A stretch of 64,000 bases of DNA from Flavobacteriales bacterium (GTDB taxonomy: Bacteria > Bacteroidota > Bacteroidia > Flavobacteriales_G > JALEGO01). Positions 1,012-62,867 of this stretch are shown here, piece by piece. The notes beneath the pieces are model-generated. The model was given only the letters and a program-made list of their open reading frames with translations, had not been told where the DNA came from and did not search any database. The DNA is taken from assembly GCA_020629755.1 (NCBI GenBank), contig JAHDCS010000005.1, positions 729 to 64,728 of the forward strand. The letters are read 5' to 3'. The translations under genes were made by a program, and so were the position numbers. Each line of letters opens with the position of its first letter. Position 1 is the first letter of the stretch.

Positions 1012-1258
1012 AATTGTTTAATTTATGGAAGGATGTTGAACCTCGCAAAGATACGTTGAACTTATTTAAAGTCCTCATAAAACTATGCTTCATACACATT
1101 AACCTTTCTAACTTTAGCTTATTTTTTTGTCATAGCTTGGGCTATTGCCAATAAATAAGAGCTTTGTTAGAAAATATTGATCTACATAAATCATTTGTTT
1201 TTGAAAACTTTAAATAAGTTCAGCATCCCCCCAAAAAAGAAACATGAAACCAAAAACC

Positions 1259-8948: not shown

Positions 8949-11900
8949 CTACATATTTCTTCTATACTGCCCCCCTACTTCAAACAAACTCTCTGTAATT
9001 TGACCAAGCGAGCAAGACTTAACGGCTTCCATTAAGCTTTCAAATACATTTTGGTTGTTAATGGCAGATTGCTGAACAATGTCTATTGATGTTTTGGCGA
9101 GTGATTTCTCTCTAGACTTTAAGGCCTCAACGGTTTTAATTTGATTCTCTTTTTCTTCTTCAGTAGCACGGATGACTTCTTTAGGTAAAATAGTCGGCGA
9201 TCCTTCTGAACTTAAAAAAGTGTTCACCCCCATGATTTTTAATTCGCCGGTATGCTTGAGCATTTCGTAGTAATGACTTTCTTCTTGAATTTTTCCGCGC
9301 TGGTACATCGTTTCCATAGCCCCTAGCACCCCCCCTCTTTCGGTGATCCTATCAAACTCAACCAGAACTGCTTCTTCTACTAAATCAGTAAGCTCTTCAA
9401 TAATAAAAGACCCTTGTAATGGGTTTTGGTTTTTAGCTAAACCTAATTCATGATTAATGATCAACTGAATCGCCATAGCACGTCTTACAGATTCTTCTGT
9501 AGGCGTTGTAATGGCCTCATCATAGGCATTTGTGTGTAATGAATTGCAATTGTCGTAAATGGCATATAAAGCCTGAAGGGTAGTTCTAATATCATTAAAG
9601 CTAATCTCTTGGGCGTGTAAACTTCTGCCAGAGGTTTGAATATGATACTTAAGTTTTTGAGAGCGTTCATTCGCTCCATACACATCACGCATCGCTTTTG
9701 CCCAAATCCTTCGAGCTACTCTACCAATTACGGCATACTCCGGATCGATCCCATTAGAAAAGAAAAAAGATAAATTAGGGGCAAAGCTATTAATATCCAT
9801 CCCTCTACTTAAATAATACTCTACATAGGTAAAGCCATTGGCTAAGGTAAAAGCCAGCTGCGAAATCGGATTGGCACCTGCCTCAGCAATATGATAGCCT
9901 GAAATAGACACAGAATAAAAATTACGCACATTCTGATCACTAAAATACTGCTGCACATCGCCCATGAGCTTTAAAGAAAACTCAGTTGAAAAAATACAGG
10001 TATTCTGCGCTTGATCTTCTTTTAAAATATCGGCCTGAATAGTGCCCCGCACTTTTGTAAGTGTTTCGGCTTTAATTTTAGCATACACCTCTTTCTCTAA
10101 CACCTGATCGCCCGTTACACCTAAAAGCATCAACCCTAAACCATCATTTCCGTTTGGTATCTGGGCATTGTATTTAGGACGTTTGTTTTTTGGGAGGATG
10201 TCTTCAATTTGCTTTAAAACTTTCTTTTCGAGACCATTTTCTTTGATGTACTTTTCACATTGCTGATCTATGGCAGTATTTAAAAAGAAGGCCATAATAA
10301 TGGCGGCTGGGCCATTAATGGTCATAGACACTGAGGTTTTAGGGTCACATAAATCAAAACCAGAATAGAGTTTTTTAGCATCGTCTAAACAGCAAATAGA
10401 AACCCCTGCATTGCCTACTTTGCCATAAATATCTGGCCGATGATGCGGATCGCGCCCATACAGAGTAACCGAATCAAAAGCAGTAGACAGCCGTTTAGCA
10501 GGCAAGCCTTTGGATACATAATGAAAGCGCTTATTGGTGCGCTCTGGCGCGCCTTCGCCCGCAAACATCCGGGTAGGATCTTCACCCTCTCTTTTAAACG
10601 GATATACTCCAGCGGTAAACGGAAACTCACCCGGCACATTTTCTTGCAGTGCCCATTTTAAAATATCGCCATAGGCCGAGTAAGAAGGCAAACACACTTT
10701 GGGTATTTTATTATGCGAAAGAGAAGTAGTGAAGGTGTCAATTTCAATGGTTTTATCACGCACCTTAAAGGCATAGACATCGTCTTTATAGCGCCTAACT
10801 TTTTGAGGCCACTGATCAATTAAAATTTTATGTTTAGGATCTAAATCTAAAAGCACTTTTTCTTTTAGCTGATTTACTTCTTCGCTTTTGTAATCTAGCA
10901 AAGCCAATGTTTTCTCTAGAGCAAATAAGTCATTTGCCAAGTTCGCTTGGCTTTCAGCGCGCTTGTTGTACTGCCTAACAGCAGTTGAAATTTCAGACAA
11001 ATACCTCACACGCTCAGGGGGGATGATGAATTGCTTTTCTTGACCACTAATATTCTGATGTTTTGAATCAAAAAAACGAGTGCCACATTTCTCATCAATA
11101 GCTTTAAGGAGTTTACTAAATAAGCTATTCGTGCCCGGATCATTAAATTGCGAAGCCATCGTGCCAAACACAGGCATCTCTTTAAGATCTGTATCAAAAA
11201 GGGTATGATTTCTTTGGTACTGCTTTCTAACATCTCTAAGTGCATCTTGAGCGCCTTTTTTATCGAATTTGTTCAAGGCAATGAGATCTGCAAAATCAAG
11301 CATATCTATTTTTTCGAGCTGCGTGGCCGCTCCGTACTCAGGCGTCATCACATAAAGCGACAAGTCTGAATGATCGGTAATTTCGGTATCAGATTGCCCA
11401 ATACCAGAGGTTTCTAAGATCACTAAATCAAAACCAGATGCTTTCACTACATCCACTGCATCTTTAATGTGTTTAGACAGCGCCAAATTTGACTGACGCG
11501 TCGCTAAAGAACGCATATACACCCGCTCACTGAAAATAGCATTCATCCGAATGCGATCGCCCAACAATGCGCCACCTGTTTTTCGCTTAGAAGGATCTAC
11601 CGATATAATGGCAATGGTTTTTGTTTCAAAAGCATTTAAAAAACGTCTCACTAGTTCATCAACAAGCGATGATTTGCCTGCACCACCCGTTCCGGTAATA
11701 CCCAGAACAGGCGTTTTACTTTTTTGAGCAACCGCTCTTATCTCTTTAAAGAGGCTTGTGTGTTGTTCAGGCGCATTTTCAGCCCCAGAAATTAACCTCC
11801 CAATTTCTATATGATCTTGTGCTTGTATGCGCTTAAGCGAAACGGTTTGCTCTCCTGTTTTAAAGTCACATTTCTCTAATAAATCATTGATCATTCCTTG

Positions 11901-12328: not shown

Positions 12329-14266
12329 TTAGATCGGACGACCAATCTCTAGACCTATTTGGCGTTTAAATTCTTTGAGCTTGATTAGTTTACTAAAAAT
12401 TTCGTCTTGGGTTAAATCACTCTTTGAAAGATCTTTTAGTTTTTCTTCTAAAGCCTTAATCATTTTACTAACCCGAAAGCTCTTGTAGGCATACACAGCT
12501 TCAAAGCAGGCACGTTTGAGTTGCTTATCTTCAGTTTGCACCAAAATGTTTTTTCGCTCCCAGTCTGCCAAGGCATAAGGCAGGGTTGTAAGGTCAATCA
12601 CAATGTCTTTTGTCGCCGTATCGTCTTGATTGTAAAGCGCTCGCAAGGCGGCATCATGATCCTCTGCTTGCAGGTATTTTTGTGCAATTTTTGAAACAAG
12701 TTCATTTTCAAAATGCAACTCGTCTTTTAAGAGCTCACCACTTAAAAAGTCTTTTATTTTTTGGGGAGGATGTTCATCATCTACCACAAACTCTTGATCA
12801 CCATAATTGAGATACAGCCGCAATATATCAAGTTCATAAATATTCGGGCGATCTACATGATCAACCCCTAAATATCCTCTATTAACCCCTACATCGTCTT
12901 TAGGTGTATCTAATGGCAATACATCTATGGGCGGAATAAACCGTGCGTTTTTTTCGTGCTCGTATCTTTTTTTCCTTAACACTTTACTTAGCTCATTGAC
13001 AAGTAAAGATTCTGAGACATTAAGCACATTTGCACATTGCTGTATATAGAGTGTCCGCTTTATCTGATCATCTATTAAAGCAACAGAAGCAATAATACTA
13101 TGAATCAAAGACGCTTTTTCAATCGGATTGTTCTCTGCCTCGGCGCGCAAGAGCTCTGATTTAAATAAAATAAAATCTTTGGCCCCATTTTCAACAAATG
13201 CAAGTAATTCTTCAGATGATAGTTTTTTAGCCATCGAATCTGGATCATCCCCTTCAGGAAACAATACCACCTTTACATTCATCCCCCCAGAAAGCAAAAG
13301 ATCAATCCCTCTAAATGACGCTTTAATTCCGGCCACATCGCCATCGTATAAGACCGTGACATTAGACGTGAAACGCTTCATTAGTTTAATCTGACCATCT
13401 GTAAGCGATGTGCCTGATGAAGCCACTACATTTTCAATGCCTGCCTGATGAAAGGCGATCACATCGGTATACCCTTCAACCAGATAACAATTGTCTTTTT
13501 GAGCAATGGCACGTTTTGATTCAAAGAGCCCATACAAAACCTTATTCTTCACATAAAGAGCCGTTTCTGGGCTGTTGACATACTTAGGCGCTTTGGTGTT
13601 TTCTTCTAAAATACGGCCACCAAAACCAATACAGGCTCCTGACAAAGAGCGAATCGGAAAAATCAGCCGCCCTCTATATCCATCATATAATTTATCATTC
13701 TTTTCTTTACTTAGGCCAAGCTTTAAAAGAAACTCTTTTTGATAGCCTTTGCTGATGGCCGCTGAAGTAAAGGCATCCCATGCCTTTGGATTATAGCCAA
13801 TCAGAAACTTCTCAATGCTTTGTGTATTAAACTGCCTTGTTTGCAAATAACTGAGTGCTTGCTCTTGCCCTTCAGTGCTTTTGAGCTGTTTAGCGAAATA
13901 CTCTAGGGCATATTTTTGAATGATCTGCAAGCTCTCTTTCTCTGAAGCCGCTTTAATTTCTTCTTCGCTGAGCTTTCGCTCTTCTATTTCTATACCGTAT
14001 TTAGAAGCAATTTTTTTGAGTGCTTCAACATAAGACAAATGCTCATGTTTCATTACAAAATCAACCGCATTGCCCCCTTCGCCACAGCCAAAACATTTAT
14101 AGATACCCTTGGTTGCTGACACGCTAAACGAAGGTGTTTTTTCATTATGAAACGGGCAACAAGCTTTAAAATCAGCGCCTCGTTTTTTTAAGCTGACATA
14201 ATCGCCAACGACCTCTTCAATGCGAAGGGTTTCATATATTTCACTTACCGTCTCTTTAGGGATCAT
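12329..14266 (-). CDS. dnaG: DNA primase
   Basis: CPFHNEKTPSF zinc finger, KYVNSPET, VEGYTDVI TOPRIM; start placed at MIPKE (14266) because a TAnnTTTG box lies at 14278-14285. Confidence 0.97.
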   Translation of the reverse strand: MIPKETVSEIYETLRIEEVVGDYVSLKKRGADFKACCPFHNEKTPSFSVSATKGIYKCFGCGEGGNAVDFVMKHEHLSYVEALKKIASKYGIEIEERKLSEEEIKAASEKESLQIIQKYALEYFAKQLKSTEGQEQALSYLQTRQFNTQSIEKFLIGYNPKAWDAFTSAAISKGYQKEFLLKLGLSKEKNDKLYDGYRGRLIFPIRSLSGACIGFGGRILEENTKAPKYVNSPETALYVKNKVLYGLFESKRAIAQKDNCYLVEGYTDVIAFHQAGIENVVASSGTSLTDGQIKLMKRFTSNVTVLYDGDVAGIKASFRGIDLLLSGGMNVKVVLFPEGDDPDSMAKKLSSEELLAFVENGAKDFILFKSELLRAEAENNPIEKASLIHSIIASVALIDDQIKRTLYIQQCANVLNVSESLLVNELSKVLRKKRYEHEKNARFIPPIDVLPLDTPKDDVGVNRGYLGVDHVDRPNIYELDILRLYLNYGDQEFVVDDEHPPQKIKDFLSGELLKDELHFENELVSKIAQKYLQAEDHDAALRALYNQDDTATKDIVIDLTTLPYALADWERKNILVQTEDKQLKRACFEAVYAYKSFRVSKMIKALEEKLKDLSKSDLTQDEIFSKLIKLKEFKRQIGLEIGRPI

Positions 14267-14312
14267 CTTTGAGAAAACAAAGATACGCACTTTGTTTGTA
14301 TATTGTAAAAGA

Positions 14313-15278
14313 ATGGATATGCTCTCTTATTTGTCATCCCCCCAAGTACTTTGTGCTTTAAGCCTCTTAACCGGCTTATTTTTTCTCTTTAATATCTGGA
14401 TGAGCATACGCACAAAAAAACAAAATCAGACCCTTATTAAAACCCTTGAAGAAAAAAACAAAGAAATCGCGTCTCAAAAAGCGATGGTCGAAGAAAAAAA
14501 TAGAGCTATTTTATCTAGCATTGAATATGCAAAAAACATTCAAGAAGCCATTCTTACTTCTGAAAGCTACTTAAAGTCAATCATAGATGACTTTTTTATT
14601 TTTTACAAGCCTAGAGACATTATTGGAGGAGATTTTTATTGGGGATATAAAACCCAAGAAAACGACATTATTATTGCCGTGGCAGACTGTACAGGCCATG
14701 GCGTTCCGGGTGCTTTGATGAGCATGATTGGTAATGCACTTTTAAATGAAATTGTGATTGAGAATGGCATTACCTCTCCTGCATTAATTGCAGAACAACT
14801 CCGCGCCGGGATTATCAATTCATTTAAACATTCTGATGTAGAAGAAAAAAACACCACCCACGATGGCATGGATATTTCGCTTATAAAACTCAATTTAAGC
14901 ACAAGGCTTTTATCGTATACCGCAGCCAATCAACCCTTATATGTCATTTCAAATAATACAATCATTAAAACCAAGGTGAATGATTTTTCAATCTCAAGTT
15001 TAAATCTTGAGCTTAAACATTTTGAGGAGCATGAAGTACAACTTAAAAAAAGCGATTGTATTTTCTTATCTACCGATGGTTTTCAAGATCAATTCGGCGG
15101 CGAAAAAGGCAAAAAATTTAAACTAGAACCTTTTCGAAAGCTTCTTCTCAAGTTATCTAAACTTAACTCTGAAGAGCAAAAACGAACACTTGATACAACC
15201 CTTAAAAATTGGGTATCTTCTCAAACACCACAACATCCCCAAATTGATGACATCTGCATCTTAGGGATTCGGGTTTAA
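14313..15278 (+). CDS. SpoIIE/PP2C-type Ser/Thr phosphatase with one N-terminal TM helix and coiled coil
   Basis: SIEYAKNIQEAIL, GGDFY, VADCTGHGVPGA, DGMD, TDGFQDQFGG, QIDDI motifs; start at MDMLS preferred over the track start that overlaps dnaG. Confidence 0.9.
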   Translation: MDMLSYLSSPQVLCALSLLTGLFFLFNIWMSIRTKKQNQTLIKTLEEKNKEIASQKAMVEEKNRAILSSIEYAKNIQEAILTSESYLKSIIDDFFIFYKPRDIIGGDFYWGYKTQENDIIIAVADCTGHGVPGALMSMIGNALLNEIVIENGITSPALIAEQLRAGIINSFKHSDVEEKNTTHDGMDISLIKLNLSTRLLSYTAANQPLYVISNNTIIKTKVNDFSISSLNLELKHFEEHEVQLKKSDCIFLSTDGFQDQFGGEKGKKFKLEPFRKLLLKLSKLNSEEQKRTLDTTLKNWVSSQTPQHPQIDDICILGIRV

Positions 15279-15293: not shown

Positions 15294-15719
15294 TTAATTA
15301 AAAATCCGAAGGGTATTGCCATCAAAACTGGTCCGGTATCTATGAAGCGGCACTTGCGCTGGTCCTTCAAAGACAGAGCCATCTGTGATTAAAAACTGTG
15401 AACCACAACAATAATCTTCTAATAATAAATTGGCATTTACATCAATTACACCGCATGGATTAGATACTTCATAGGTGCAGTGCCTATCAAAAGCCATAAA
15501 ATTATCCTGGTCTAAACGATACACAATAATCCCTCTTGATCCGCCATTCAAATACACTGATCCACCCGGAAAATTTAAATCTATAAACAAGGGATCAGAC
15601 GTAAAAAGCATCACATCAACTGGCGTAAACGGAATAACGGTTTGCTGATCAATATTCGGATTACATCCCCCCAAAAAAAGACCTAAACATATAGAAACTA
15701 TAAAGGCTTTATTCTTCAT
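15294..15719 (-). CDS. Rieske-like lipoprotein
   Basis: Lipobox LGGC; AFDRHCTY...CCGSQF...DGSVFEGPA..PL..Y Rieske-like pattern. Confidence 0.75.
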   Translation of the reverse strand: MKNKAFIVSICLGLFLGGCNPNIDQQTVIPFTPVDVMLFTSDPLFIDLNFPGGSVYLNGGSRGIIVYRLDQDNFMAFDRHCTYEVSNPCGVIDVNANLLLEDYCCGSQFLITDGSVFEGPAQVPLHRYRTSFDGNTLRIFN

Positions 15720-18357: not shown

Positions 18358-20463
18358 TTAGCCGATCATCTGAAAATCGACTTGCTTTTTGTAGAGGTCA
18401 ATGTCTTTGATTTTAATTTTAACCTCATCGCCCAGACGGTATGTTTTTTTAGTACGCTTGCCTACTGCACTATACTTTTTCTGATCAAAGACGTAATGAT
18501 CGCCTTCTAAATCTCTTAAACGCACCATTCCTTCGCATTTATTTTCTTTGATCTCTACGTAAATGCCCCATTCGGTTATCCCGCTGATTACCCCATCAAA
18601 AATTTGGCCAACGCGTTCTTCTAAATACAATACCTGCATGTAACGTATAGAGGCTCTTTCTGCTTCACTGGCTAGCCGCTCGCGGTCAGATGAATGGGTG
18701 CATAAATGCTCTAGATCATCAGGCTTCATGCCTTTTTCTTTATTGAGATATTGCTCTAACAAACGATGCACAAGCACATCGGGGTACCGGCGAATCGGAG
18801 AGGTAAAATGCGTATAATAATCAAAGGCCAAGCCGTAGTGCCCAATGTTTTCTGTGGTGTATACCGCTTTTGCCATAGAGCGCACTGCTAAAGTCTCAAT
18901 CATATTTGCCTCTCCCTTGCCTTTGACTTGTGCCAGTAATTTATTCATTGATCTGGCTATTTCTTTAGGAGCCTTACCCCCAAATGAATACCCAAAGGTT
19001 TTCACAAAACTACTCAGTTCATTCACACGTTCTTCAGAAGGCGTATCATGAATTCTATAGACAAAAGGTTTGGGGCGATTTTCGCCTTTAGGCATACCGA
19101 TGAACTCAGCGACCTTTTTATTGGCCAACAACATAAATTCTTCGATCAGTTTATGGGCATCTAAAGAACGCTTAAATACTACTTCTGAAGGACGGTCTCC
19201 TTCTAATTTAAAGCGCACCTCTTCTCTATCAAATGAAATAGCGCCATGTTGCATGCGTTTTTTCCGAATAGCCTTTGCTATTTTATCTACAATACCAATC
19301 TCTTTTGCGTAATCTCCTTTTTGTGTCTGAATGATCTCTTGCGCCTCTTCGTAGGTATATCTACGTCTAGAATGAATAATACTCTTGCCCAGCCATTGTT
19401 TTTTAATAGTGCCATTAATATCAAGTGTAAACACGGCTGAAAACACCAGTTTGTCTTCATTTGGGCGCAATGAACACACCACATTAGAAAGCACTTCAGG
19501 CAACATCGGAATCACTCTGTCTACCAAATAAATAGATGTTGCTCTCTCAACTGCTTCTTTATCAATCAGTGAACCGGGCTTTACGTAGTGCGTCACATCA
19601 GCAATGTGCACGCCAATTTCATATAACTCATTCTCTAAAGCTTTAAAAGAAATCGCGTCATCAAAATCTTTCGCATCAAACGGATCAATGGTAAAGGTGA
19701 GTGTATCTCTAAAGTCTCTCCGCCTTTTTATTTCTTGGGGGGATATGTCAAGTGGAATTTTAGCGGCTTCTTTTTCTAAGCGTTCAGGAAACCCTCTAGG
19801 CAAGCCAAATTCGGCAAGTATGGCATGAATCTCTGTGTTTTTTTCTCCGGCCTTTCCAATGACTTCAATAACTTTTCCTTCTGGAGATTCGTCTTTTTTC
19901 CGAGGCCATTTGACAATTTCAACACCTACTTTCTCGCCTGATTTAGCTCCGTTTATTTTTTTTAGGGGGATGAAAATATCTTGTCCAAATTTAAAATCGT
20001 CTGGGATAACAAATGCGAAGTTTTTTGAAAGTTGAATTAGCCCGGTAAAATAACTCTTATGACGTTCTAACACTTCGAGTACTTCGCCTTCAGGCTTTTG
20101 ATCTGAAAACTGAGAAGTGACACGAACTCTAACTTGATCTCCATTATAGGCTCCTGCCAAATACCTTTGGGGAATAAACACATCATTTTCCATAGCCTCA
20201 CTCACTACAAATCCGGCACCTGATTTTATGGTTTCAATTTTTCCTTCAATGATGAATTCTTGTTTTTTATAGCGGTATCGGCCTCGATCAACAAATTCTA
20301 TTTTTCCCTTAAAAGCTAAATCATCTAAAATTTTCAAAAGCTGTTTTCTAGATGCTTTGTCTTTTAGACCTAGATGACTTGCAATTTGCTTATGGTTTAA
20401 AGGTCTCTTTTCAGCAGAGAGCAGTGCAAGAATTTCTTGAATAAAAAAAGAGATAGATTTCAA
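18358..20463 (-). CDS. rnr: Ribonuclease R
   Basis: TIDPFDAKDFDDA, HFTSPIRRYPD, C-terminal S1 domain; TTG start. Confidence 0.97.
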   Translation of the reverse strand: MKSISFFIQEILALLSAEKRPLNHKQIASHLGLKDKASRKQLLKILDDLAFKGKIEFVDRGRYRYKKQEFIIEGKIETIKSGAGFVVSEAMENDVFIPQRYLAGAYNGDQVRVRVTSQFSDQKPEGEVLEVLERHKSYFTGLIQLSKNFAFVIPDDFKFGQDIFIPLKKINGAKSGEKVGVEIVKWPRKKDESPEGKVIEVIGKAGEKNTEIHAILAEFGLPRGFPERLEKEAAKIPLDISPQEIKRRRDFRDTLTFTIDPFDAKDFDDAISFKALENELYEIGVHIADVTHYVKPGSLIDKEAVERATSIYLVDRVIPMLPEVLSNVVCSLRPNEDKLVFSAVFTLDINGTIKKQWLGKSIIHSRRRYTYEEAQEIIQTQKGDYAKEIGIVDKIAKAIRKKRMQHGAISFDREEVRFKLEGDRPSEVVFKRSLDAHKLIEEFMLLANKKVAEFIGMPKGENRPKPFVYRIHDTPSEERVNELSSFVKTFGYSFGGKAPKEIARSMNKLLAQVKGKGEANMIETLAVRSMAKAVYTTENIGHYGLAFDYYTHFTSPIRRYPDVLVHRLLEQYLNKEKGMKPDDLEHLCTHSSDRERLASEAERASIRYMQVLYLEERVGQIFDGVISGITEWGIYVEIKENKCEGMVRLRDLEGDHYVFDQKKYSAVGKRTKKTYRLGDEVKIKIKDIDLYKKQVDFQMIG

Positions 20464-20593
20464 TCTTGGATAGTGTTACAACGAATATAGGCATTTTGAT
20501 TGCCATCCCCCCAAGTAAACCCAAAAATTAACAGGAACCGGCAATTGGCTTCAAAGAAATAGATGAGGATTTACACCATCAAATTACAAGCTA

Positions 20594-20989: not shown

Positions 20990-21048
20990 TATTGTAAAAT
21001 AAAGCGTTAACAAAATTGTAGCTTTGCTACTCTACAAATTTAGAAAAA

Positions 21049-24953: not shown

Positions 24954-24976
24954 CCCCCCTAATTATTATACTACCC

Positions 24977-38837: not shown

Positions 38838-38895
38838 AAGTCAGCTGTTAAAAAACATAAATTATTTCTGGGGGGATTAAAACAAAATGCTCTTC

Positions 38896-48846: not shown

Positions 48847-51480
48847 ATGACTTTAGCAAAAAACTTTGAGGCTCAACAAATTGAATCTAAATGGTTAGAT
48901 TATTGGTCTGAACATGCGCTTTATGAATCAAAGCCCAACCAAAAAGAAGCACATACTATTGTAATCCCCCCACCAAATGTAACAGGCATATTACATATGG
49001 GACACATGCTGAATAATACCATTCAAGATGTTTTGATTAGACGCGCGCGTCAAGAAGGTAAAAATGCATGCTGGGTGCCTGGAACAGATCATGCCTCTAT
49101 TGCAACAGAAGCCAAAGTATTAAAAATGCTTGCTGAAAAAGGCATCCAAAAAAAAGATCTTACCAGAGAAGCCTTCTTAACACATGCTCTAGAATGGAAA
49201 GACAAACATGGGGGTATTATTTTAGAACAACTCAAACGCTTAGGCTGCTCATGCGATTGGTCAAGAACCAAATTTACCATGGACAAAGAGATGACACAGG
49301 CTGTAATTAAAACCTTTGTTGATCTTTATGAAAAAGGCTTTATCTACAAAGGCATCCGTATGGTTAATTGGGATCCTGAGGCACAAACAGCCGTATCTGA
49401 TGAAGAAGTGATTCATAAAGAAGTTGATTCGTCACTATACCATATCAAGTATCAAATAAAAAACAGTTCTGAATGTATTGTCATAGCCACTACCCGGCCA
49501 GAAACTCTATTAGGCGATACGGCTATAGCCATCCACCCAAAAGATAAACGGTTTAAACAGCATCACCGTAAAACAGCTATAGTCCCCCTAATTGGGAGAG
49601 AAATCCCCATCATACTTGACGAATATGTAGATAAAGAATTTGGAACTGGAGCGCTTAAAATTACCCCAGCACATGACATCAATGACTATGAATTAGGCCT
49701 CAAACACAATCTTAATTCTATCGACATTTTAAACGACGATGGCACCTTAAATGAAAAAGCAGAAATCCTGATTGGTGAAGACAGATTTATAGCACGTAAG
49801 AAAATCGCAAAGCTTTTAAAGCAACAAAATGCGCTTATAAAGACAGAGCCTTTAAAAAATAAGGTCGGTTTTTCAGAGCGTACAGACGCAGTAATTGAGC
49901 CTAAGCTCTCTTTACAGTGGTTTGTAAAAATGGATGAACTCTCAAAACCAGCGCTTGAAAATGTGATGAATGACAACATCAAATTTCATCCTCCCAAATT
50001 TAAAAACAGCTATAAACATTGGATGGAAAATATCAAAGATTGGTGTATTTCTAGGCAACTCTGGTGGGGACAACAAATTCCGGCTTTTTATTATGGTGAT
50101 GGGGCTAACGATTTTGTAGTCGCTGAAAACAAAACACTAGCCCTTGAAAAAGCACAAAAAAAGACCAAGAAACCTCTTAAAGGAAGTGATTTAAAACAAG
50201 ACCCAGATGTTTTAGATACATGGTTTTCGTCATGGCTTTGGCCTATTTCTGTATTTGGAGGGATAAAAGATAAAACCAATAAGGAGATTCAGTACTACTA
50301 CCCTACTCAAGATTTGGTGACGGCTCCTGAAATTATGTTTTTCTGGGTGGCGCGAATGATCATGGCTGGCTATGCCTTTATGGGCGAGAAACCCTTTGAA
50401 AATGTCTATTATACAGGTATTGTAAGAGATAAACAAAGGCGGAAAATGTCGAAATCTCTGGGTAATTCTCCTGACCCCATAAAGCTGATGGAAAAATACG
50501 GGACAGATGCCGTTCGGGTGGGTATGTTACTAAGTTCACCAGCTGGTAACGACTTATTGTTTGATGAAAATTTATGTGCACAGGGACGAAATTTTTCAAA
50601 TAAAATATGGAATGCCTACAGGTTAATCTGCTCATGGAATACCAATGAAGAACAGAGCAGTGAGGCAGAAAAAATGGCCATTGATTGGATGACTCAAAGA
50701 ATACATAAAATAGGTTATGAAAATAACGCTTTATATAGCCAATATAGGTTATCTGATGTATTGATGAACCTTTATAAACTTATTTGGGACGACTTTTGTG
50801 CTTTGTTTTTAGAACTCATTAAGCCTGGATTTGAGCAAACTATCTCTGAAAAAACCACAAAAGACGTTAAAGCGCTTTTTGAAAATATATTAAAGCAATT
50901 GCACCCCTTTATGCCATTTATTACCGAAGAGCTATGGTCTAATTTAGAGTCTCGAGAAAAAGGCGAAAGTATTTCAACGGCAGCATGGCCTAAATTTAAC
51001 ACTACGTTTAACCAAAAGCTTTCAGAAGACTTTATTCTATTCTCTGGTATTACAAGCCATATACGAACCATTAGAAAAGAAAAAAACATCGGATTTAAAA
51101 CCCCAATACCTTTGTATTTTAAAGAAAATAATTTCGTGCATCCAAACATCATCCCACTGCTTAAAAAAATAAATAATTTGAGTGCTTTTGATAAATACGA
51201 TGAGAAGGCAAGCGGTTTACTCTCATTTATTGAGCAGAATCAAGAATATTTCATTAAAAACCCTGTGGGAGATCTTTCTGAGAATACAGCTGATATCTCA
51301 AAAATTCAAGAAGAAATCAACTACACCAAAGGCTTTTTAGCTTCTGTTGAGAAAAAATTAGCAAATGAGCGCTTTGTGCAAAATGCTCCAGAGAAAGTAG
51401 TAGAATTAGAACAAAAGAAAAAAGAAGATGCCCTACAAAAACTCAAACTTTTAAAAAAACAACTCTCAACGTGTAATTAG
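48847..51480 (+). CDS. valS: Valine--tRNA ligase
   Basis: PPPNVTG.LHMGH, DWCISRQLWWG, KMSKS, C-terminal coiled coil. Confidence 0.98.
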   Translation: MTLAKNFEAQQIESKWLDYWSEHALYESKPNQKEAHTIVIPPPNVTGILHMGHMLNNTIQDVLIRRARQEGKNACWVPGTDHASIATEAKVLKMLAEKGIQKKDLTREAFLTHALEWKDKHGGIILEQLKRLGCSCDWSRTKFTMDKEMTQAVIKTFVDLYEKGFIYKGIRMVNWDPEAQTAVSDEEVIHKEVDSSLYHIKYQIKNSSECIVIATTRPETLLGDTAIAIHPKDKRFKQHHRKTAIVPLIGREIPIILDEYVDKEFGTGALKITPAHDINDYELGLKHNLNSIDILNDDGTLNEKAEILIGEDRFIARKKIAKLLKQQNALIKTEPLKNKVGFSERTDAVIEPKLSLQWFVKMDELSKPALENVMNDNIKFHPPKFKNSYKHWMENIKDWCISRQLWWGQQIPAFYYGDGANDFVVAENKTLALEKAQKKTKKPLKGSDLKQDPDVLDTWFSSWLWPISVFGGIKDKTNKEIQYYYPTQDLVTAPEIMFFWVARMIMAGYAFMGEKPFENVYYTGIVRDKQRRKMSKSLGNSPDPIKLMEKYGTDAVRVGMLLSSPAGNDLLFDENLCAQGRNFSNKIWNAYRLICSWNTNEEQSSEAEKMAIDWMTQRIHKIGYENNALYSQYRLSDVLMNLYKLIWDDFCALFLELIKPGFEQTISEKTTKDVKALFENILKQLHPFMPFITEELWSNLESREKGESISTAAWPKFNTTFNQKLSEDFILFSGITSHIRTIRKEKNIGFKTPIPLYFKENNFVHPNIIPLLKKINNLSAFDKYDEKASGLLSFIEQNQEYFIKNPVGDLSENTADISKIQEEINYTKGFLASVEKKLANERFVQNAPEKVVELEQKKKEDALQKLKLLKKQLSTCN

Positions 51481-56653: not shown

Positions 56654-56701
56654 TTGAGTTTTGCCAAATTTAACGTAATTTCATCAATCTATTTTCTTTT
56701 T

Positions 56702-57722
56702 ATGGGCAGCACACAAAGAAATCTATTTTTCATGTTCACTATCGCTTTTTCCACGATGGTGTTTTATTCTTTTGAGTGGATGAATCCTCCTGAAAAAAAC
56801 CAAGACCATTCTTCTCTAGTTAGCCAACAACTCTCTGTTTTAGGTGAGAATTTGCCCTGGTATTTAGACAGTACGTTTACCCCTCAAGAAATTGAAAGAG
56901 GACAATCCCTCGTTTATAAGGGCTATTATACTCTAGGCACTAAAAAAAGCAAAAAACAATCTAAACACTTTACGTGTAAAAGCTGTCACAATACACAAAG
57001 AGAAGATCCTGTTTTGTATCGTCCATCTGCTGAGTCTCGTCTTGAATATGCCGTTGAACATAATCTACCTTTCTTACAGGGCACCACACTTTGGGGTGCT
57101 GTGAATAGAGAGCATTGGTACAATGACGATTATTATAAAAAATACGGCTCGCTTGTGAAAAACGCACAAGATAATCTAGAAAGTGCCATCCAACTTTGCG
57201 CCACTGAATGCGCCCAAGGCCGAGCGCTTACTCAAGAAGAAATGCGCTATATGCTTGCCTATCTTTCATCCCTCCAAGTTAAAATGAGTGATCTAGATTT
57301 AACTGAAAAAGAAACTCATAAAATCAGCAATGCTTCATCCCCCCAAGAAAAAAAACAGGCCCTCTCACTTCTTAAAAGCAAGTACTTATTAGCTTCAGGC
57401 GCTACATTTACAGATGTATTATCAAAAGATAAACGAAATCAAAAAGCGAATCCTCAAACCGGAAAACAGATTTACACCCAGAGTTGTTTGCATTGCCACA
57501 ATCCGAAAAATGGGGTTACCAATTACACCTTAGACATTAGCAAAATTGACATCAAACATCTGAAAAAGAATGTTTTAGAGAATAATCCATACTCTATCTA
57601 TACGATTACTAGAGTGGGTACTTCCCCCATTCCGGGCTATAAACCTTATATGCCTCATTATAGATAGATTGAGCGATCATCAAATTCATGATTTGGCTGC
57701 TTATTTAAATGTCGCAAAATAA
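56702..57722 (+). pseudogene. Di-heme cytochrome c, frameshifted about 20 codons before its natural end (or a sequence error)
   Basis: CKSCH and CLHCH; frame stops at TAG 57665-57667, while the +1 frame continues DRLSDHQIHDLAAYLNVAK* to 57722. Confidence 0.7.
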
Positions 57723-60700: not shown

Positions 60701-62867
60701 AACTGGTAGCGCTACACTGGGCATATCAGAAGGTGTAGCCCCCTATTCTATTTTGTGGGATAGCCTTGCCGGATCTCAAACTACGGCCACAGCTACAAAT
60801 TTAACACCTGGCACCTATACAGTTACCGGTGTGGATGCTATTAATTGTAAAGTTGACATCTCTGTACCTATTCAAAATTTAGCACCTTCAGCAGTTGCAT
60901 TAAATAGCTTAGGTAGTGACACTTTATGTGCAGGCAACTCCTTTAATTTATCTACAGGTGCTTCGGGGGGATATGGCCCACCTTATACGTATAACTGGAG
61001 TACTGGCTCAAGCAATACCTCTTTTACAGTTTCTCCGGCAGACGATATGCTTTATACTGTATCGGCTACCGATAAAGAAGGTTGCCCAAGTGAAATAGAC
61101 TCTTTACACATAGGCGTAAACACGATGGTGCTTACTAAAGATTCTATAATTCCGGATTGTGATTCTACCAATGGCGTAGCGAGTGTAAGTCTAATTGATG
61201 GCACGATGCCTTTTACGTATCAATGGGGTGCTAGTTCGAATAATCAAGCTACAGATACCGTTTACAATTTAGCCCCGGTGATGCATTATGTAACCATTAC
61301 AGACGCTATTGGGTGCCAAACCTCTGCCTCATTTAATTTAGACAATGATCAGCCAGATTTAGCTTTAATCGACACCACACATGTCGATTGTTACGGCCAG
61401 CCTGAAGGCGAAGCGACCGTATTGGCTTCAGGAGGTACTGCACCTTACGCCTACCAATGGGATTCTTTAGCCAATTACCAAACTACCCCAACTGCAGTGT
61501 TATTACAAGCAGACATCTATACTGTTTCAGCTACTGATGCTACAGGTTGTACTGTATCTTTAGAGGTCGAAATTGAAGATCGTTCTGAAGGTGAAATTTT
61601 TGTTACGCTCTCTGAGCCTGATACAGTCTGTCCAAACACACAAATCACCTTAAATGCGTCTGCTTCAGGTGGTGCTGGAGGCCCTTATTCTTTTGATTGG
61701 AACAACGGTTTTGGATCTGGAAACAGCATTACAGTAACCCTTGTATCTGACATGACCTATAATGTCATTGCTACAGACAGCAAAGGCTGTAAAAGTCTTG
61801 GTGATTCTGTTATCATGCGCGTGCACTTGTTTAACCCAGATAGCTTGCTGTTGAATACGCAAGATGTCTGTCAATTTAGTGAAAGTTTTATCAGTGCCTC
61901 TTACCAAGGTGATCTTGGCCCTTATACCTATACCTGGGATAACGGTTTAAACGGATCAGGACCTCATCAAATTATAGTGTCTGACACACAGAATTATTCA
62001 GTTACAGTAACTGATGTATGTGGCAATCAAGTCAGTAATTCTCTTTCAGTTTATCCGCTTGATGTTCCTGAAATTGCAGACTATATAAATATGGATGGAT
62101 GCGAGCCTTTTTCATTTTCAATTTCAGATTCATTAAACAATTCAAATATAGTAGAATATTTATGGGATTTAGGAGACGGCACCACCTCTAGCCTTTCTGA
62201 GGTGTCTCACACCTATCAAAATCCTGGTATTTACTCAGTCAAATTGCAAATGATTAACACTCTTGGCTGCACCTCAAATTTTGATACTGCTTCTATTGTA
62301 AACGTATTTAGCTTACCTATTGTGATTTGTGGCGCTTCAGATACTGAAATTGAATTTGGTGAACCTGCCCAATTTAGCAGCTCAACCCAAACTACCTACA
62401 ATTGGGATTTAGGCGATCCCCTATCAATTGAAGATACATCCACCCAAAAAGCAGTGACCTATTTTTACAGCGACACGGGCACCTATACCGCCTCTGTAAT
62501 AGTGAGTAATCAATACGGATGTATTGACTCTTGTTTTGTGACTATTCGTGTGAGTCCTGATATTAGTATCAAAGTACCCAATGTATTTATTCCTGATCCG
62601 ACCGGGCCAAATGGGGGAGACTATGATCCTGATAATCCGAATAATCAGGTTTTCTTTCCGTTTACCGAATATGTAGATAAATTTCACATGATGATTTTTA
62701 ACCGCTGGGGTGAAATGATCTTTGAAACCTACGATATTAACAAAGGATGGGATGGTTATTACAAAGGCAAATTATGCCAACAAGACGCCTATGTATGGAA
62801 AATTGAAGCTACCTTTTTTGATGGGAGAGAGAAGAGTTTAACTGGAGACGTGACATTGCTAAGATAA
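57774..62867 (+). CDS. T9SS type B substrate with PKD and SprB-like repeats
   Basis: ATHIVGG..Y N-terminus, WDFGD/WDLGDG PKD motifs, GGT.PY.Y.W...Y.V.VTD..GC repeats, VPNVF.P...IFNRWGE...WDG...G.VTLLR. Confidence 0.92.
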   Translation: MLKKGYIIAVLVFLSCVQTLQATHIVGGAFDYQKIADSTYVITLKLYRDCRVDSVNSPIPLPTVANIKIRGFLGADVGKDIQIPRISIGEVDPVVDTCVVQPNICVQEGIYRDTIYGIDPRQGHHVYYQLCCRNSTILNVVNPLDAGESFYTYISPDTLFYPKVSERLIWFENFDLADSLDSDNGSTAWSTTSSSGSNVFGGTLDGKFCVSDADGPYTLTTEYVDISAHSSVDLQVTLFEEGGLESSDQIEVFYNLNGLDGVDYPFDVNDFVQDDFTPGLTAYADNVSGLSVRVKVVIENNSPLEMHCIDNIKIISPDTASYALGDNSSPAFVNTPPIFVCLQETLEFDNSAIDADGDSLVYSFYTPYDARNPADADFEDYIPTYSVDDQIIFDTIPWVTGFDANNPLGPSGISLNANTGLLTISPPNLGQYVVGVRVDEYRDGRLIGYTVRDFQFNVVYCPPIAEAMINDSTSCANRATIFLESEDAAKNYWWDFGDPTTNADTSIIKSPTYAYDAGGNYTVTLITNPNTACADTMTKNLAIKSIDADFGFGSSFCQNETVLFKDSTVVSSNNAIVSWTWDFGNGSTSTQQNPSSTYTTVGTYQIKLVVEDQEGCKDSITKSIVVTPRPILTAANDFNACVNENKITLSATAQHYVSIDWNLIGPGYGVFVSENNLSTDFTLSPLNNTFNVSSLKFEVIATGSCATVRDTIEVTLKKAPRLDLFGDTTMCYGADSILIALSPSGGTLPYQYNWSNNITSISQYVDVGSYVGWVEDANGCLSPKDSIVIDQVQNQTTVQIHADSIVCLNNAPFDIHASYAHTDGITWSAAGTIAPSSTDSVITYNPTAAERAALSFSIRIQTDQDALGCPTAKDTAEIQINRLIVLNKDSIIPPCYDNDGLAYVQVSGGTNPYLYQWGSSSNNQIGDTAFNLSASWHYVTVTDTIGCSVVDSFDLRNNPLVLDITDTSDVTCFDQATGSATLGISEGVAPYSILWDSLAGSQTTATATNLTPGTYTVTGVDAINCKVDISVPIQNLAPSAVALNSLGSDTLCAGNSFNLSTGASGGYGPPYTYNWSTGSSNTSFTVSPADDMLYTVSATDKEGCPSEIDSLHIGVNTMVLTKDSIIPDCDSTNGVASVSLIDGTMPFTYQWGASSNNQATDTVYNLAPVMHYVTITDAIGCQTSASFNLDNDQPDLALIDTTHVDCYGQPEGEATVLASGGTAPYAYQWDSLANYQTTPTAVLLQADIYTVSATDATGCTVSLEVEIEDRSEGEIFVTLSEPDTVCPNTQITLNASASGGAGGPYSFDWNNGFGSGNSITVTLVSDMTYNVIATDSKGCKSLGDSVIMRVHLFNPDSLLLNTQDVCQFSESFISASYQGDLGPYTYTWDNGLNGSGPHQIIVSDTQNYSVTVTDVCGNQVSNSLSVYPLDVPEIADYINMDGCEPFSFSISDSLNNSNIVEYLWDLGDGTTSSLSEVSHTYQNPGIYSVKLQMINTLGCTSNFDTASIVNVFSLPIVICGASDTEIEFGEPAQFSSSTQTTYNWDLGDPLSIEDTSTQKAVTYFYSDTGTYTASVIVSNQYGCIDSCFVTIRVSPDISIKVPNVFIPDPTGPNGGDYDPDNPNNQVFFPFTEYVDKFHMMIFNRWGEMIFETYDINKGWDGYYKGKLCQQDAYVWKIEATFFDGREKSLTGDVTLLR

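What the first reader, a model, noticed from the sequence alone, without database searches (positions are those of the whole stretch)
1224..60972. Highly iterated non-palindromic motif (C)ATCCCCCC(AA): candidate DNA-uptake-sequence-like signal in a Bacteroidota genome
Seen: 15 exact copies of ATCCCCCC by manual scan, about one per 4 kb. Plus strand: 1225, 13281, 14336, 15665, 20505, 24952, 48964, 57337. Minus strand: 11017, 19737, 24573, 35289, 38870, 42621, 60965. Five are the identical 11-mer CATCCCCCCAA. A zero-order estimate at ~36% GC predicts about 0.5 copies on both strands. Of the 20 C/G runs of 6 or more that I found, 15 have the AT flank, so this is not just homopolymer abundance. 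Copies occur on both strands and in several frames (SSPQ twice, ISPQ, SSPR, HPPP, IPP twice, SGGM, LGGC, VGGF, SGGY), often in signal peptides or linkers, and also between genes. Established: this dispersed, strand-neutral, frame-independent pattern is typical of Neisseria DUS, Pasteurellaceae USS and cyanobacterial HIP1; Chi and KOPS are instead strand-polarised. Inference: a sequence-specific uptake, recombination or repair process is driving the motif into this genome. I know of no such motif described in Bacteroidota.
Basis: partly seen in the sequence, partly recalled or inferred. Interest (0 to 1): 0.9.

Follow-up and report, generated by a model that had tools for sequence, protein, structure and literature searches.

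The report
Hyper-abundant ATCCCCCC motif, uptake-sequence-like
This Bacteroidota genome carries hundreds of copies of one short DNA word, its sister species carries a one-letter variant of it, and the pattern looks most like the self-recognition tags that some bacteria use when taking up DNA, which have not been described in this phylum.

Summary
ATCCCCCC occurs 15 times in the window (0.74 expected) and 736 times in the 2.36 Mb genome (23-43 expected; the other 15 NNCCCCCC words have 54 copies or fewer). It is the most over-represented 8-mer. It survives codon-preserving shuffles (691 against 64).

The extended form is (C)ATCCCCCC followed by an A-rich tract. It lies equally on both strands, in all six frames and in non-coding DNA. 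It is often made by synonymous GGN-GGN to GGG-GGG changes. It is not polarised with GC skew.

It is species-specific: none of 67 other genomes of the order or 400 of the class is comparable. The same-genus species instead has ATCCACCC (468 copies against 19 control). Another genus of the family has a weaker ATCCTCCC excess.

Best reading (about 0.45): a DNA-uptake-sequence-like tag acting through a pilus-independent, Riemerella-type route, whose gene homologues are present. Uptake itself is untested.

Main rival: an unpolarised Chi-like signal.

An unexplained 2:1 alternation of motif orientation at 0.5-3 kb shows that the function depends on orientation.

The parts
1225..1232 (+). ATCCCCCC copy (11-mer CATCCCCCCAA). 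Non-coding, between the stop of the minus-strand ORF 1259-7720 and the start of ORF 1-1011.
11017..11024 (-). ATCCCCCC copy on the sense strand of the minus-strand ORF 8949-12296 (methylmalonyl-CoA mutase/MeaB fusion).
13281..13288 (+). ATCCCCCC copy antisense to the primase ORF 12329-14290, so GGGGGGAT lies on the coding strand.
14336..14343 (+). ATCCCCCC copy (11-mer CATCCCCCCAA) on the sense strand of ORF 14220-15278. The aligned G001 sequence is unrelated.
15665..15672 (+). ATCCCCCC copy (11-mer) antisense to ORF 15294-15719. It encodes the LGGC lipobox of a signal peptide (T-tract, G6, ATG).
19737..19744 (-). ATCCCCCC copy on the sense strand of the RNase R ORF 18358-20463.
20505..20512 (+). 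ATCCCCCC copy (11-mer). Non-coding, between ORFs 18358-20463 and 20594-21013.
24573..24580 (-). ATCCCCCC copy with a run of 8 (24571-24578), on the sense strand of ORF 23721-24953. G001 has CATCCACCA at the aligned site.
24952..24959 (+). ATCCCCCC copy abutting the listed start of the minus-strand ORF 23721-24953. On the coding strand it reads G6 followed directly by the ATG.
   Evidence: reading of the coordinates
35289..35296 (-). ATCCCCCC copy on the sense strand of ORF 34966-35670.
38870..38877 (-). ATCCCCCC copy. Non-coding, between the divergent ORFs 37428-38795 (minus strand) and 38952-41249 (plus strand, topoisomerase I).
42621..42628 (-). ATCCCCCC copy antisense to ORF 42565-43542. 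It encodes VGGF in the N-terminal signal peptide.
48964..48971 (+). ATCCCCCC copy on the sense strand of the valyl-tRNA synthetase ORF 48847-51480. It encodes a conserved IPP, which G001 writes as ATACCCCCT, so the difference is synonymous.
57337..57344 (+). ATCCCCCC copy (11-mer) on the sense strand of ORF 56654-57667.
60965..60972 (-). ATCCCCCC copy antisense to the 1697-aa ORF 57774-62867.

Best explanation
ATCCCCCC, in its extended form (C)ATCCCCCC plus an A-rich tract of about 7-10 bases, is most likely a DNA-uptake-sequence-like self tag. The proposed mechanism is as follows.

1. Cells of this species preferentially bind and import DNA fragments that carry the motif.
2. Homologous recombination installs the imported alleles.
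3. Over time any mutation that creates the motif is over-transmitted (molecular drive), wherever protein function tolerates it.

The proposed entry route is the pilus-independent one described genetically in Riemerella. It runs from an outer-membrane TonB-dependent-receptor-like protein with its DUF5689/choice-of-anchor-J surface lipoprotein, through a periplasmic ComEA-like HHH protein, to ComEC, then ComF-like, DprA and RecA.

Shown here:
- the extreme and specific enrichment;
- its DNA-level origin;
- strand and replication neutrality;
- avoidance of the most constrained genes;
- one-base dialects in related species;
- presence of the gene homologues.

Inferred, not shown:
- that uptake is biased towards the motif;
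- which protein reads it;
- that the 2:1 alternation of orientation reflects strand-specific or directional action with saturation over roughly 0.5-2.5 kb.
For: **Enrichment and specificity**
- 736 copies against 23-43 expected. It is the top 8-mer of the genome under an order-3 model (z = 106).
- The other NNCCCCCC words have 54 copies or fewer.
- The run length is specific: AT followed by C6 occurs 689 times, by C5 176 times, by C7 36 times.
- Positions 1-4 (ATCC) are strict, with variants at 0.3-1.2 times expectation. Positions 5, 6 and 8 are relaxed, as in a graded binding specificity.
- Observed copies in ORFs are 10.8-fold above the synonymous-codon shuffle.

**Origin at the DNA level**
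- Copies occur in all six frames. 40 of 736 lie outside my ORFs, which matches the roughly 6% non-ORF fraction.
- At 32 of 130 gap-free orthologous sites, every amino acid is conserved with G001 while the codons differ, for example GGCGGAAT in G001 against GGGGGGAT here.
- Only 6 of the 130 sites hold G001's own motif and 1 holds ATCCCCCC, so most copies arose after the split.
- Copies pile up in signal-peptide hydrophobic regions in three frames (FFLGGC, FFGGMF, FFWGDV). 113 of 430 antisense copies lie within 100 nt of an ORF start.
- Density falls from 0.49 per kb in weakly conserved genes to 0.12 per kb in genes 80% or more identical to G001.
- The largest motif-free stretch (21.5 kb) is the S12/EF-G/L3/L2/SecY/RpoA block.

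**Distribution**
- The G-rich form lies on the G-rich strand in 326 of 591 cases (55%). Comparable G-rich 8-mers have a median of 64%.
- Spacing is more even than random: the variance-to-mean ratio is 0.73 in 189 bins of 10 kb.

**Dialects**

| Genome | ATCCCCCC (control) | ATCCACCC (control) | ATCCTCCC (control) |
|---|---|---|---|
| G000 | 736 (77) | 181 (31) | 128 (46) |
| G001, same genus | 11 (14) | 468 (19) | 16 (20) |
| G002, other genus | 11 (12) | 50 (25) | 164 (29) |

The enriched word in each of the three genomes has an A-rich 3' flank.

**Machinery present in G000**
- ComEC and DprA.
- A ComEA-like HHH_3 protein.
- A ComF-like ORF.
- A DUF5689/choice-of-anchor-J lipoprotein 4 bp downstream of an 864-aa protein. 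Sources name that protein's 3,941 or more homologues TonB-dependent receptor plug proteins.
- The pair is flanked by two endonuclease/exonuclease/phosphatase genes.

**Literature**
- DUF5689 and its outer-membrane neighbour are essential for transformation in Riemerella anatipestifer (PMC8459023, abstract and sections 19-20 read).
- R. columbina prefers its own DNA, yet no uptake sequence has been identified (PMC7965970, passages read).
Against: - No uptake or transformation data exist for this uncultured organism.
- ComEC and DprA are near-universal. They ring in 10-11 of the 14 control genomes, including non-competent ones.
- Strong DUF5689 orthologues also occur in G003, G005 and G004, where I saw no such motif. 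None was found in G002 (82% complete), which has the weak T dialect. Presence of the machinery therefore does not track the motif.
- No secretin was found, and no PilB/PilT-type ATPase scored above cut-off. The only known DUS receptor type, a type IV minor pilin, cannot apply.
- Known DUS and USS lie about half in terminators, often as inverted pairs (bioRxiv 10.1101/2025.10.24.684340, passages read). Here only 5% of copies are outside ORFs. Opposite-orientation pairs closer than 250 bp are nearly absent: 4 against 28.5 expected.
- The density of 1 per 3.2 kb is about three times lower than I recall for Neisseria and Haemophilus.
- The orientation alternation has no precedent that I know of in DUS or USS. 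An orientation-dependent enzyme such as AddAB would explain it more naturally.
- The fold of the DUF5689 protein (pLDDT 66.5) matched only carbohydrate-binding and MAM-type beta-sandwiches, so there is no evidence that it binds DNA.
Confidence: 0.45

Rival explanations
1. The motif is an unpolarised Chi-like signal. The organism's AddAB-type helicase-nuclease would read the G-rich strand, GGGGGGAT in this species and GGGTGGAT in the sister species. Reading it would switch the enzyme from degradation to RecA loading. Copies would be kept in both orientations at regular intervals to protect either side of two-ended breaks or both ends of incoming linear DNA.
For: - AddA-like (UvrD helicase plus PD-(D/E)XK, 1011 aa) and AddB-like (914 aa, C-terminal PDDEXK_1) ORFs are present.
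- The motif is G-rich, 8 bases long and differs between species. From recall, known Chi sites share these traits.
- Function clearly depends on orientation. Same-orientation neighbours are depleted about two-fold at 0.5-2.5 kb, and the configuration 'C-form then G-form' is enriched at 1-2 kb (88 against 54). The effect survives conditioning on gene strand (z = -6.6).
- The Chi site of Bacteroides AddAB was unknown in 2010 (PMC2887965, passages read).
Against: - There is no replication polarity. 55% of copies lie on the G-rich strand, below the 64% median of comparable G-rich words and the 71% of the most skewed words. From recall, known Chi sites are co-oriented with the leading strand.
- The 20-30-fold enrichment and the A-tract flank are far beyond what I recall for Chi.
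- RecC was not found.
Confidence: 0.2
2. The motif is driven by another sequence-specific biased gene-conversion or repair process, analogous to very-short-patch repair. A mismatch-specific nickase or repair enzyme would convert near-matches into the motif, with no DNA uptake involved.
For: - Motif gains are by point substitution, often synonymous.
- One-off variants at positions 5, 6 and 8 are themselves enriched 3-11-fold. That fits a mutation-conversion balance.
- The dialect differences would follow from changes in enzyme specificity.
Against: - No Vsr homologue and no C5 DNA methyltransferase were found in a genome that is 98% complete.
- No known repair system reads 8-9 contiguous asymmetric bases plus a flank (recall).
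- This mechanism does not explain the orientation alternation or the A-tract.
Confidence: 0.1
3. The motif is a binding site for an abundant chromosome-organising or nucleoid-associated protein. Selection rather than drive would maintain it, and the C6/A-tract junction would supply a structural signal.
For: - Spacing is more even than random (variance-to-mean ratio 0.73).
- The G/C-tract followed by an A-tract is a strong structural discontinuity (inference).
- The higher-order arrangement depends on orientation.
Against: - The word changes by a base between sister species and is missing from the rest of the family and order. That is unusual for a conserved architectural system.
- No candidate protein was identified.
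- Copies avoid conserved genes, as expected of a costly passenger rather than a required site.
Confidence: 0.1
4. The finding is a compositional, codon-usage or assembly artefact.
For: - The genome is a 92-contig draft.
- Homopolymers are error-prone in some sequencing technologies (general knowledge).
Against: - Codon-preserving shuffles give 64 copies against 691 observed.
- The G6 runs preserve Gly-Gly residues conserved in G001 at more than 20 sites.
- Logan contigs of three runs cover motif sites with 0 differences. This is the same sample but a different assembler.
- A sister genome has its own dialect.
Confidence: 0.01

Closest known systems
DNA uptake sequences of Neisseriaceae (DUS and its dialects)
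   Same: - A hyper-abundant short asymmetric word.
- Equal on both strands, in coding and non-coding DNA.
- Species- or genus-specific one-base dialects.
- Present in housekeeping genes.
   Different: - No type IV pilus or ComP-type receptor genes.
- Almost no close inverted pairs or terminator copies.
- About three-fold lower density (recall).
- An A-tract flank.
- Orientation alternation at 0.5-3 kb.
Uptake signal sequences of Pasteurellaceae (USS)
   Same: - A strict core followed by an A/T-rich flank.
- Mostly inside genes.
- Preference for weakly constrained protein positions.
- Spacing more even than random (PMC2817400, abstract seen; the rest recalled).
   Different: - A different phylum and a different envelope machinery.
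- A single continuous A-tract rather than phased AT tracts (recall).
- Uptake bias is untested here.
Natural transformation system of Riemerella (Flavobacteriales)
   Same: - Homologues of its essential genes are present: ComEC, DprA, a ComF-like protein, an HHH protein, and a DUF5689 lipoprotein with its outer-membrane neighbour.
- Riemerella prefers its own DNA, by an unknown signal (PMC8459023, PMC7965970).
   Different: - No motif has been defined in Riemerella. Their k-mer table lists only A-rich words (PMC7965970, Table 3 passage).
- I could not fetch a Riemerella genome to test it.
Chi (crossover hotspot instigator) sites
   Same: - A G-rich, species-specific 8-mer.
- Function that depends on orientation.
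- AddAB-like genes are present.
   Different: - Not co-oriented with replication.
- Much stronger enrichment, plus a flank.
HIP1 of cyanobacteria
   Same: A hyper-iterated octamer dispersed through genes.
   Different: - HIP1 is palindromic (recall); this motif is not.
- No C5 methyltransferase was found here.

Membership tests
DUS/USS (DNA uptake enhancing sequences) | One specific 8-12-mer present at hundreds to thousands of copies, far above expectation | tested here: met
   736 copies against 23-43 expected (Markov models) and against 64 (codon shuffle).
DUS/USS (DNA uptake enhancing sequences) | No strand or replication polarity | tested here: met
   367 forward and 369 reverse copies. 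55% lie on the G-rich strand, against a 64% baseline. The genome is a draft, so GC skew stands in as a proxy for replichores.
DUS/USS (DNA uptake enhancing sequences) | Lineage-specific dialects among relatives | tested here: met
   ATCCACCC in G001 (468 against 19 control). ATCCTCCC in G002 (164 against 29 control, weaker).
DUS/USS (DNA uptake enhancing sequences) | Motif-bearing DNA is taken up or transforms preferentially | not testable with these tools
   The organism is uncultured and known only from an assembly.
DUS/USS (DNA uptake enhancing sequences) | Type IV pilus with a minor-pilin receptor (ComP; ComN is predicted for USS) | tested here: not met
   There was no Secretin hit, and no T2SSE hit scored above cut-off, in a genome that is 98% complete.
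DUS/USS (DNA uptake enhancing sequences) | Frequent inverted-repeat pairs in transcription terminators | tested here: not met
   4 opposite-orientation pairs closer than 250 bp, against 28.5 expected. 40 of 736 copies lie outside ORFs.
DUS/USS (DNA uptake enhancing sequences) | Core competence genes (comEC, dprA, comEA, comF) | tested here: met
   ComF-like and ComEA-like score below the NCBIfam equivalog cut-offs. These genes are widespread, so this is weak evidence.
Riemerella-type transformation machinery | DUF5689/choice-of-anchor-J lipoprotein next to an outer-membrane receptor gene | tested here: met
   C81:9568-10848 matches DUF5689 (E = 9e-44) and choice_anch_J. Its 864-aa upstream neighbour has homologues that sources name TonB-dependent receptor plug proteins. 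No CarboxypepD_reg hit was found in that neighbour.
Chi | Co-orientation with the leading strand | tested here: not met
   326 of 591 copies (55%) lie on the G-rich strand. The most skewed 8-mers reach 71%.
Chi | RecBCD or AddAB present | tested here: met
   AddA-like and AddB-like ORFs are present. RecC was not found.
Chi | Attenuates the nuclease or stimulates recombination | not testable with these tools
   This needs biochemistry.
KOPS/AIMS | Strong polarity from origin to terminus | tested here: not met
   Successive copies alternate in orientation: 386 opposite against 263 same.
HIP1 | Palindromic octamer | tested here: not met
   The motif is asymmetric.
REP/MITE-type repeats | A longer conserved unit that is intergenic and structured | tested here: not met
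   Information content is confined to about 9 bases plus the A-tract. About 95% of copies lie inside ORFs.
Dcm/Vsr very-short-patch drive | A C5 methyltransferase plus the Vsr endonuclease | tested here: not met
   Neither was found.

The most novel reading that the evidence does not exclude
This is the first DNA-uptake-sequence system outside Proteobacteria. It would be read not by a type IV pilin but by a SusC/SusD-like pair on the Bacteroidota surface, made of a TonB-dependent receptor and a DUF5689 lipoprotein. Its specificity would evolve as one-base dialects (C, A and T at position 5) among species of one family. It would act in a strand- or direction-specific way. In that case a copy in one orientation would not substitute for a copy in the other, which would explain the 2:1 alternation of orientation at 0.5-3 kb. 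If so, it would also explain the unexplained self-DNA preference of naturally competent Riemerella.
Probability: 0.35. Interest if true: 0.9.

Novelty: new variant of a known kind. Interest (0 to 1): 0.8.

Why it matters
Sequence-specific DNA uptake is firmly known only in two proteobacterial families, and its receptor is settled only in Neisseria.

Flavobacteriales such as Riemerella are naturally competent and prefer their own DNA. They use a machinery with no pilus, and no recognition signal has been found for it.

A hyper-abundant, dialect-bearing motif in a Bacteroidota lineage that carries that machinery gives a concrete sequence to test. It also gives a simple recipe for finding more such motifs: k-mer over-representation normalised for composition, rather than raw counts.

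Whatever the mechanism, three species with three dialects offer a natural experiment in how a DNA-reading specificity and a whole genome co-evolve.

The orientation alternation is a new quantitative constraint that any proposed mechanism must explain.

Tried and rejected
**Models and searches that gave nothing**
- Maximal-order Markov expectation is uninformative, because the sub-words are themselves dominated by the motif. I used models of order 1-3 and codon shuffles instead.
The one locus with 6 copies (L192) is C-rich low-complexity DNA from an organism with 49% GC. No further carrier was found. Records near the window's own genome are left out by that tool.
- The literature search for the 8-mer letters found 859 papers. 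None of the 20 listed was relevant.

**DUF5689 lipoprotein**
- The structure model is mediocre (pLDDT 66.5, from an alignment of 6 sequences).
- Foldseek against the PDB gave only CBM, MAM and adhesin beta-sandwich matches for the C-terminal domain. This says nothing about DNA binding.
- phmmer of the 864-aa neighbour against PDB sequences gave no hit.

**Taxonomy and related genomes**
- Valyl-tRNA synthetase loci from genome contigs served only to place the organism. The best hits are about 60% identical and come from Flavobacteriales or Bacteroidota MAGs. The genome's own record and near ones are withheld.
- The G004 sample was only 64 kb, too small to judge.

**Tests that did not discriminate**
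- Divergence of the candidate receptor genes between G000 and G001 is unremarkable: 58% identity for DUF5689 and 67% for its neighbour, against a median of 55%. This gives no sign of accelerated co-evolution.
- Motif-poor stretches are mixed. They include the ribosomal block, BamA/GidA, PolA and a low-GC capsule locus. 'Depleted in foreign DNA' is therefore only partly supported.

**Sequencing runs**
- No RNA holder was listed.
- The runs X1-X3 come from one sample and may be the source of the assembly. They support the letters of the sequence but are not independent occurrences.

**Not available**
- Supplementary tables of the Riemerella papers were not seen. They may list homologue distributions that bear on the machinery claim.

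Full report
**1. The observation**

- ATCCCCCC occurs 15 times in the window at the stated places. Dinucleotide-preserving shuffles give a mean of 0.74 and never more than 4.
- The window has 20 C or G runs of six or more, and 15 of them carry the AT flank.
- Five copies are the 11-mer CATCCCCCCAA.

The window is part of contig C5 of a 2,363,385-base, 92-contig genome with 36.6% GC.
- Genome-wide there are 736 copies, 367 forward and 369 reverse.
- The fifteen other NNCCCCCC words have 2-54 copies each.
- Markov models of order 1, 2 and 3 expect 25, 23 and 43 copies.
- Under the order-3 model it is the most over-represented 8-mer of the genome, and the next-ranked words are its own overlapping neighbours.
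- The run length is specific: AT followed by C6 occurs 689 times, by C5 176 times, by C7 36 times.

I made crude ORF calls: longest ORFs of 90 aa or more, greedy and non-overlapping. They cover 94% of the genome, so they over-call.
- Observed in ORFs: 266 sense and 425 antisense copies.
- Shuffling synonymous codons within each gene gives 15.3 and 48.6.
- Shuffling codon order gives 5.6 and 23.2.

The enrichment is therefore not a matter of homopolymers, codon usage or amino-acid usage, and it is not local to the window.

**2. Anatomy of the motif**
- The logo is C (58%) at position -1, then the invariant octamer, then an A-rich tract: 64-79% A at +8 to +13, 60% at +14, and still 50% at +18.
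- Positions 1-4 (ATCC) are strict. Single-base variants there sit at 0.3-1.2 times expectation.
- Positions 5, 6 and 8 are relaxed: ATCCACCC 5.2x, ATCCTCCC 6.9x, ATCCCTCC 11.5x, ATCCCCCA 3.3x.
- Copies occur in all six frames. 40 of 736 lie outside my ORFs, which matches the non-ORF fraction.
- In the antisense orientation, 113 of 430 copies lie within the first 100 nt of an ORF. There the T-tract, G6 and AT(G) are read in three frames as FFLGGC (lipobox), FFGGMF or FFWGDV, inside signal-peptide hydrophobic cores.

**3. It is real, and it is written at the DNA level**

I fetched 695 kb of the same-genus genome G001 and aligned it codon by codon through tblastn. Background nucleotide identity in aligned codons is 64%.
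- 159 motif sites lie in genes with a G001 match. 142 of these were aligned, and 130 were aligned without gaps.
- At those 130 sites G001 has ATCCCCCC once and its own ATCCACCC six times.
- Per-position identity at motif sites is 0.38-0.66, at or below background. Most copies therefore arose after the split.
- At 32 of the 130 sites every amino acid is conserved and only the codons differ, for example GGCGGAATC, GGTGGAATT or GGAGGAATC in G001 against GGGGGGATN here.
- These conserved Gly-Gly and Pro-Pro residues also show that the six-base runs are genuine and not miscalls.

Logan contigs from three runs of one sample, labelled algae metagenome, cover the motif sites at 13281, 14336 and 19737 with no differences. 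This is a second assembler on what may be the same reads.

Motif density falls with protein conservation. It is 0.49 and 0.41 per kb in genes 40-60% identical to G001, and 0.12 per kb at 80% or more.

The largest motif-free stretch, 21.5 kb in C10, is the S12/EF-G/L3/L2/SecY/RpoA block. Other long gaps hold BamA and GidA, PolA, and a low-GC capsule locus.

**4. Distribution among relatives: dialects**

In G001 the most over-represented 8-mer is ATCCACCC (51 copies against 4.2 expected in the first 308 kb).

Whole-genome counts, with the tool's control (the word read backwards) in brackets:

| Genome | ATCCCCCC | ATCCACCC | ATCCTCCC |
|---|---|---|---|
| G000 | 736 (77) | 181 (31) | 128 (46) |
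| G001, same genus | 11 (14) | 468 (19) | 16 (20) |
| G002, another genus of the family, 82% complete | 11 (12) | 50 (25) | 164 (29) |

- In 600 kb of G002, ATCCTCCC is the top 8-mer (40 against 8.0). The excess is only about five-fold, and codon-like words follow closely behind it.
- The enriched word in each of the three genomes has an A-rich 3' flank.
- In G001 position 1 is looser: A, C and T at that position are enriched 15.7x, 11.7x and 5.4x.
- 200-kb samples of G003 and G005 showed nothing of this kind. The 64 kb of G004 was too little to judge.
- None of the 67 other genomes of the order exceeds 90 copies of ATCCCCCC.
- None of 400 genomes sampled across the class is comparable. The highest is 394 copies in 8.5 Mb. 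Two unpublished genomes are in that tally, and it does not depend on them.

**5. Polarity and higher-order arrangement**

I used local GC skew (windows of plus or minus 10 kb, contigs of 15 kb or more, absolute skew of 0.02 or more) as a proxy for replication direction.
- The G-rich form lies on the G-rich strand in 326 of 591 cases (55%).
- The median for 139 other 8-mers with five or more G and no C is 64%.
- The most skewed frequent 8-mers reach 71%.

The motif is therefore less polarised than its composition predicts, which argues against Chi-like or KOPS-like polarity.

Copies are spread more evenly than random. The variance-to-mean ratio is 0.73 in 189 bins of 10 kb, and the coefficient of variation of spacing is 0.87.

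Successive copies unexpectedly prefer opposite orientations, 386 against 263. Compared with 300 random placements:
- Same-orientation pairs are about half as frequent as expected at 0.5-2 kb and still depleted at 2-2.5 kb (z = -4.3, -3.6, -2.9, -1.8).
- The configuration ATCCCCCCAAA ... TTTGGGGGGAT is enriched at 1-2 kb (88 against 54).
- Opposite-orientation pairs closer than 250 bp are almost absent (4 against 28.5).

The alternation survives two controls.
- Resampling each copy's orientation conditional on its gene's strand and on ORF-start position gives 166 +/- 8.8 same-orientation neighbours at 0.5-3 kb, with a minimum of 137 in 2000 resamples. The observed number is 108.
- After dropping the ORF-start copies the counts are 85 same against 158 opposite.

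The 114 copies in my G001 sample do not show the alternation, with 15 same against 15 opposite, but the power is low.

I read this as follows. The function depends on orientation. A second copy in the same orientation within about 2.5 kb adds little. Close inverted pairs, which would form hairpins of about 16 bp inside genes, are selected against. That reading is inference.

**6. Candidate machineries**

Uptake route.
- G000 has ComEC, DprA, a 227-aa HHH_3 ComEA-like protein and a ComF-like ORF that scores below the equivalog cut-off.
- It has no secretin, and no PilB/PilT-type ATPase scored above cut-off.
- At C81:9568-10848 it encodes a lipoprotein with DUF5689 and choice-of-anchor-J domains.
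- That gene lies 4 bp downstream of an 864-aa protein with 3,941 or more homologues, which sources name TonB-dependent receptor plug proteins.
- The pair is flanked by two endonuclease/exonuclease/phosphatase genes, one of which has a T9SS sorting tail.
- The block is syntenic in G001.
- This is the domain pair that a transposon screen found essential for natural transformation in Riemerella anatipestifer, together with an HHH protein, ComEC, ComF, DprA and RecA (PMC8459023, abstract and sections 19-20 read).
- R. columbina takes up its own DNA in preference to DNA of R. anatipestifer or E. coli. The authors' raw k-mer counts yielded only A-rich words (PMC7965970, passages read).
- Against a simple link: strong DUF5689 orthologues also occur in G003, G004, G005 and two genomes of another family, and none was found in G002.

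Recombination route.
- AddA-like and AddB-like ORFs are present. RecC is not.
- The Chi site of Bacteroides AddAB was unknown in 2010 (PMC2887965, passages read).

Repair drive.
- No Vsr and no C5 methyltransferase were found.

**7. Interpretation**

The data fit best a sequence that spreads by a transmission advantage at the DNA level and is held back by protein constraint. This is the behaviour described for USS and DUS (PMC2817400, abstract seen; bioRxiv 10.1101/2025.10.24.684340, passages read).

- Uptake bias followed by recombination is the only known process that yields this combination: 20-30-fold enrichment of an asymmetric word, strand neutrality and dialects. I give it about 0.45.
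- It is not a member of the DUS/USS family in the strict sense. The pilus receptor is absent, terminator-type inverted pairs are absent, and uptake is untested.
- An unpolarised Chi-like signal (0.2) would explain the orientation dependence better. It fits the lack of replication polarity and the size of the enrichment worse.
- A repair-type conversion drive (0.1) and an architectural binding site (0.1) remain possible.
- An artefact is excluded as far as sequence data can show.

**8. Novelty**

Full-text searches found no paper that combines 'uptake sequence' with Bacteroidota. Four papers combine it with Flavobacteri- and competen-, and only the R. columbina paper is relevant. Three combine 'DNA uptake sequence', Bacteroidetes and 'natural transformation', and none describes such a motif. 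Subscription journals are not covered by these searches.

I rate the finding a new variant of a known kind. It is a DUS/USS-like hyper-abundant word in a new phylum, apparently without a pilus, with a previously undescribed alternation of orientation.

Noticed in passing
window 27264-27294: A C7 run (27264-27270) and a G7 run (27288-27294) face each other in the 56-bp gap between the convergent ORFs 26214-27263 (plus strand) and 27320-32266 (minus strand). This looks like a terminator hairpin. These runs lack the AT flank and are not part of the motif family.
   Followed up: no
window 1259-7720 and 27320-32266: The two giant ORFs (2153 aa and 1648 aa) contain no ATCCCCCC copy in 6.4 kb and 4.9 kb. 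They account for two of the longer motif-free gaps in this contig.
   Followed up: no
G000 contig C81:5812-13706 (locus L169): A gene cluster: an Exo_endo_phos_3 nuclease, an 864-aa TonB-dependent-receptor-like protein, a DUF5689/choice-of-anchor-J lipoprotein, a T9SS-tailed protein, and a T9SS-tailed endonuclease/exonuclease/phosphatase protein. It could be an extracellular-DNA capture or processing locus. It is syntenic in G001.
   Followed up: partly
G001 loci L001-L020 (308 kb): A second family of over-represented words, unrelated to the motif: GGCGGAAC/GTTCCGCC (13 against 1.5 expected), TTCCGCCC and GGTTCCGC. The palindrome AAGTACTT (56 against 20.8) is also high in the small G004 sample. 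Both are unexplained.
   Followed up: no
G003 loci L031-L040 (200 kb): Words around the palindrome TCTCGAGA, with flanking CCCCTCTC/GAGAGGGG, are strongly over-represented (for example CTCTCGAG, 13 against 0.4). This probably reflects a dispersed repeat element.
   Followed up: no
class survey, handles G432, G262, G270, G345: Moderate excess of ATCCCCCC over the reversed-word control in a few distant genomes: G432 150 against 15, same-genus G262 69 against 13, G270 394 against 54, G345 308 against 86. Densities are far below G000's.
   Followed up: no
window 24951-24959: On the coding strand one copy reads G6 followed directly by the ATG that the ORF listing gives as the start of ORF 23721-24953. 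The motif can therefore sit on a start codon.
   Followed up: no
runs X1-X3: The only public runs that hold this stretch are three runs of one sample, labelled algae metagenome. This suggests an alga-associated habitat.
   Followed up: no
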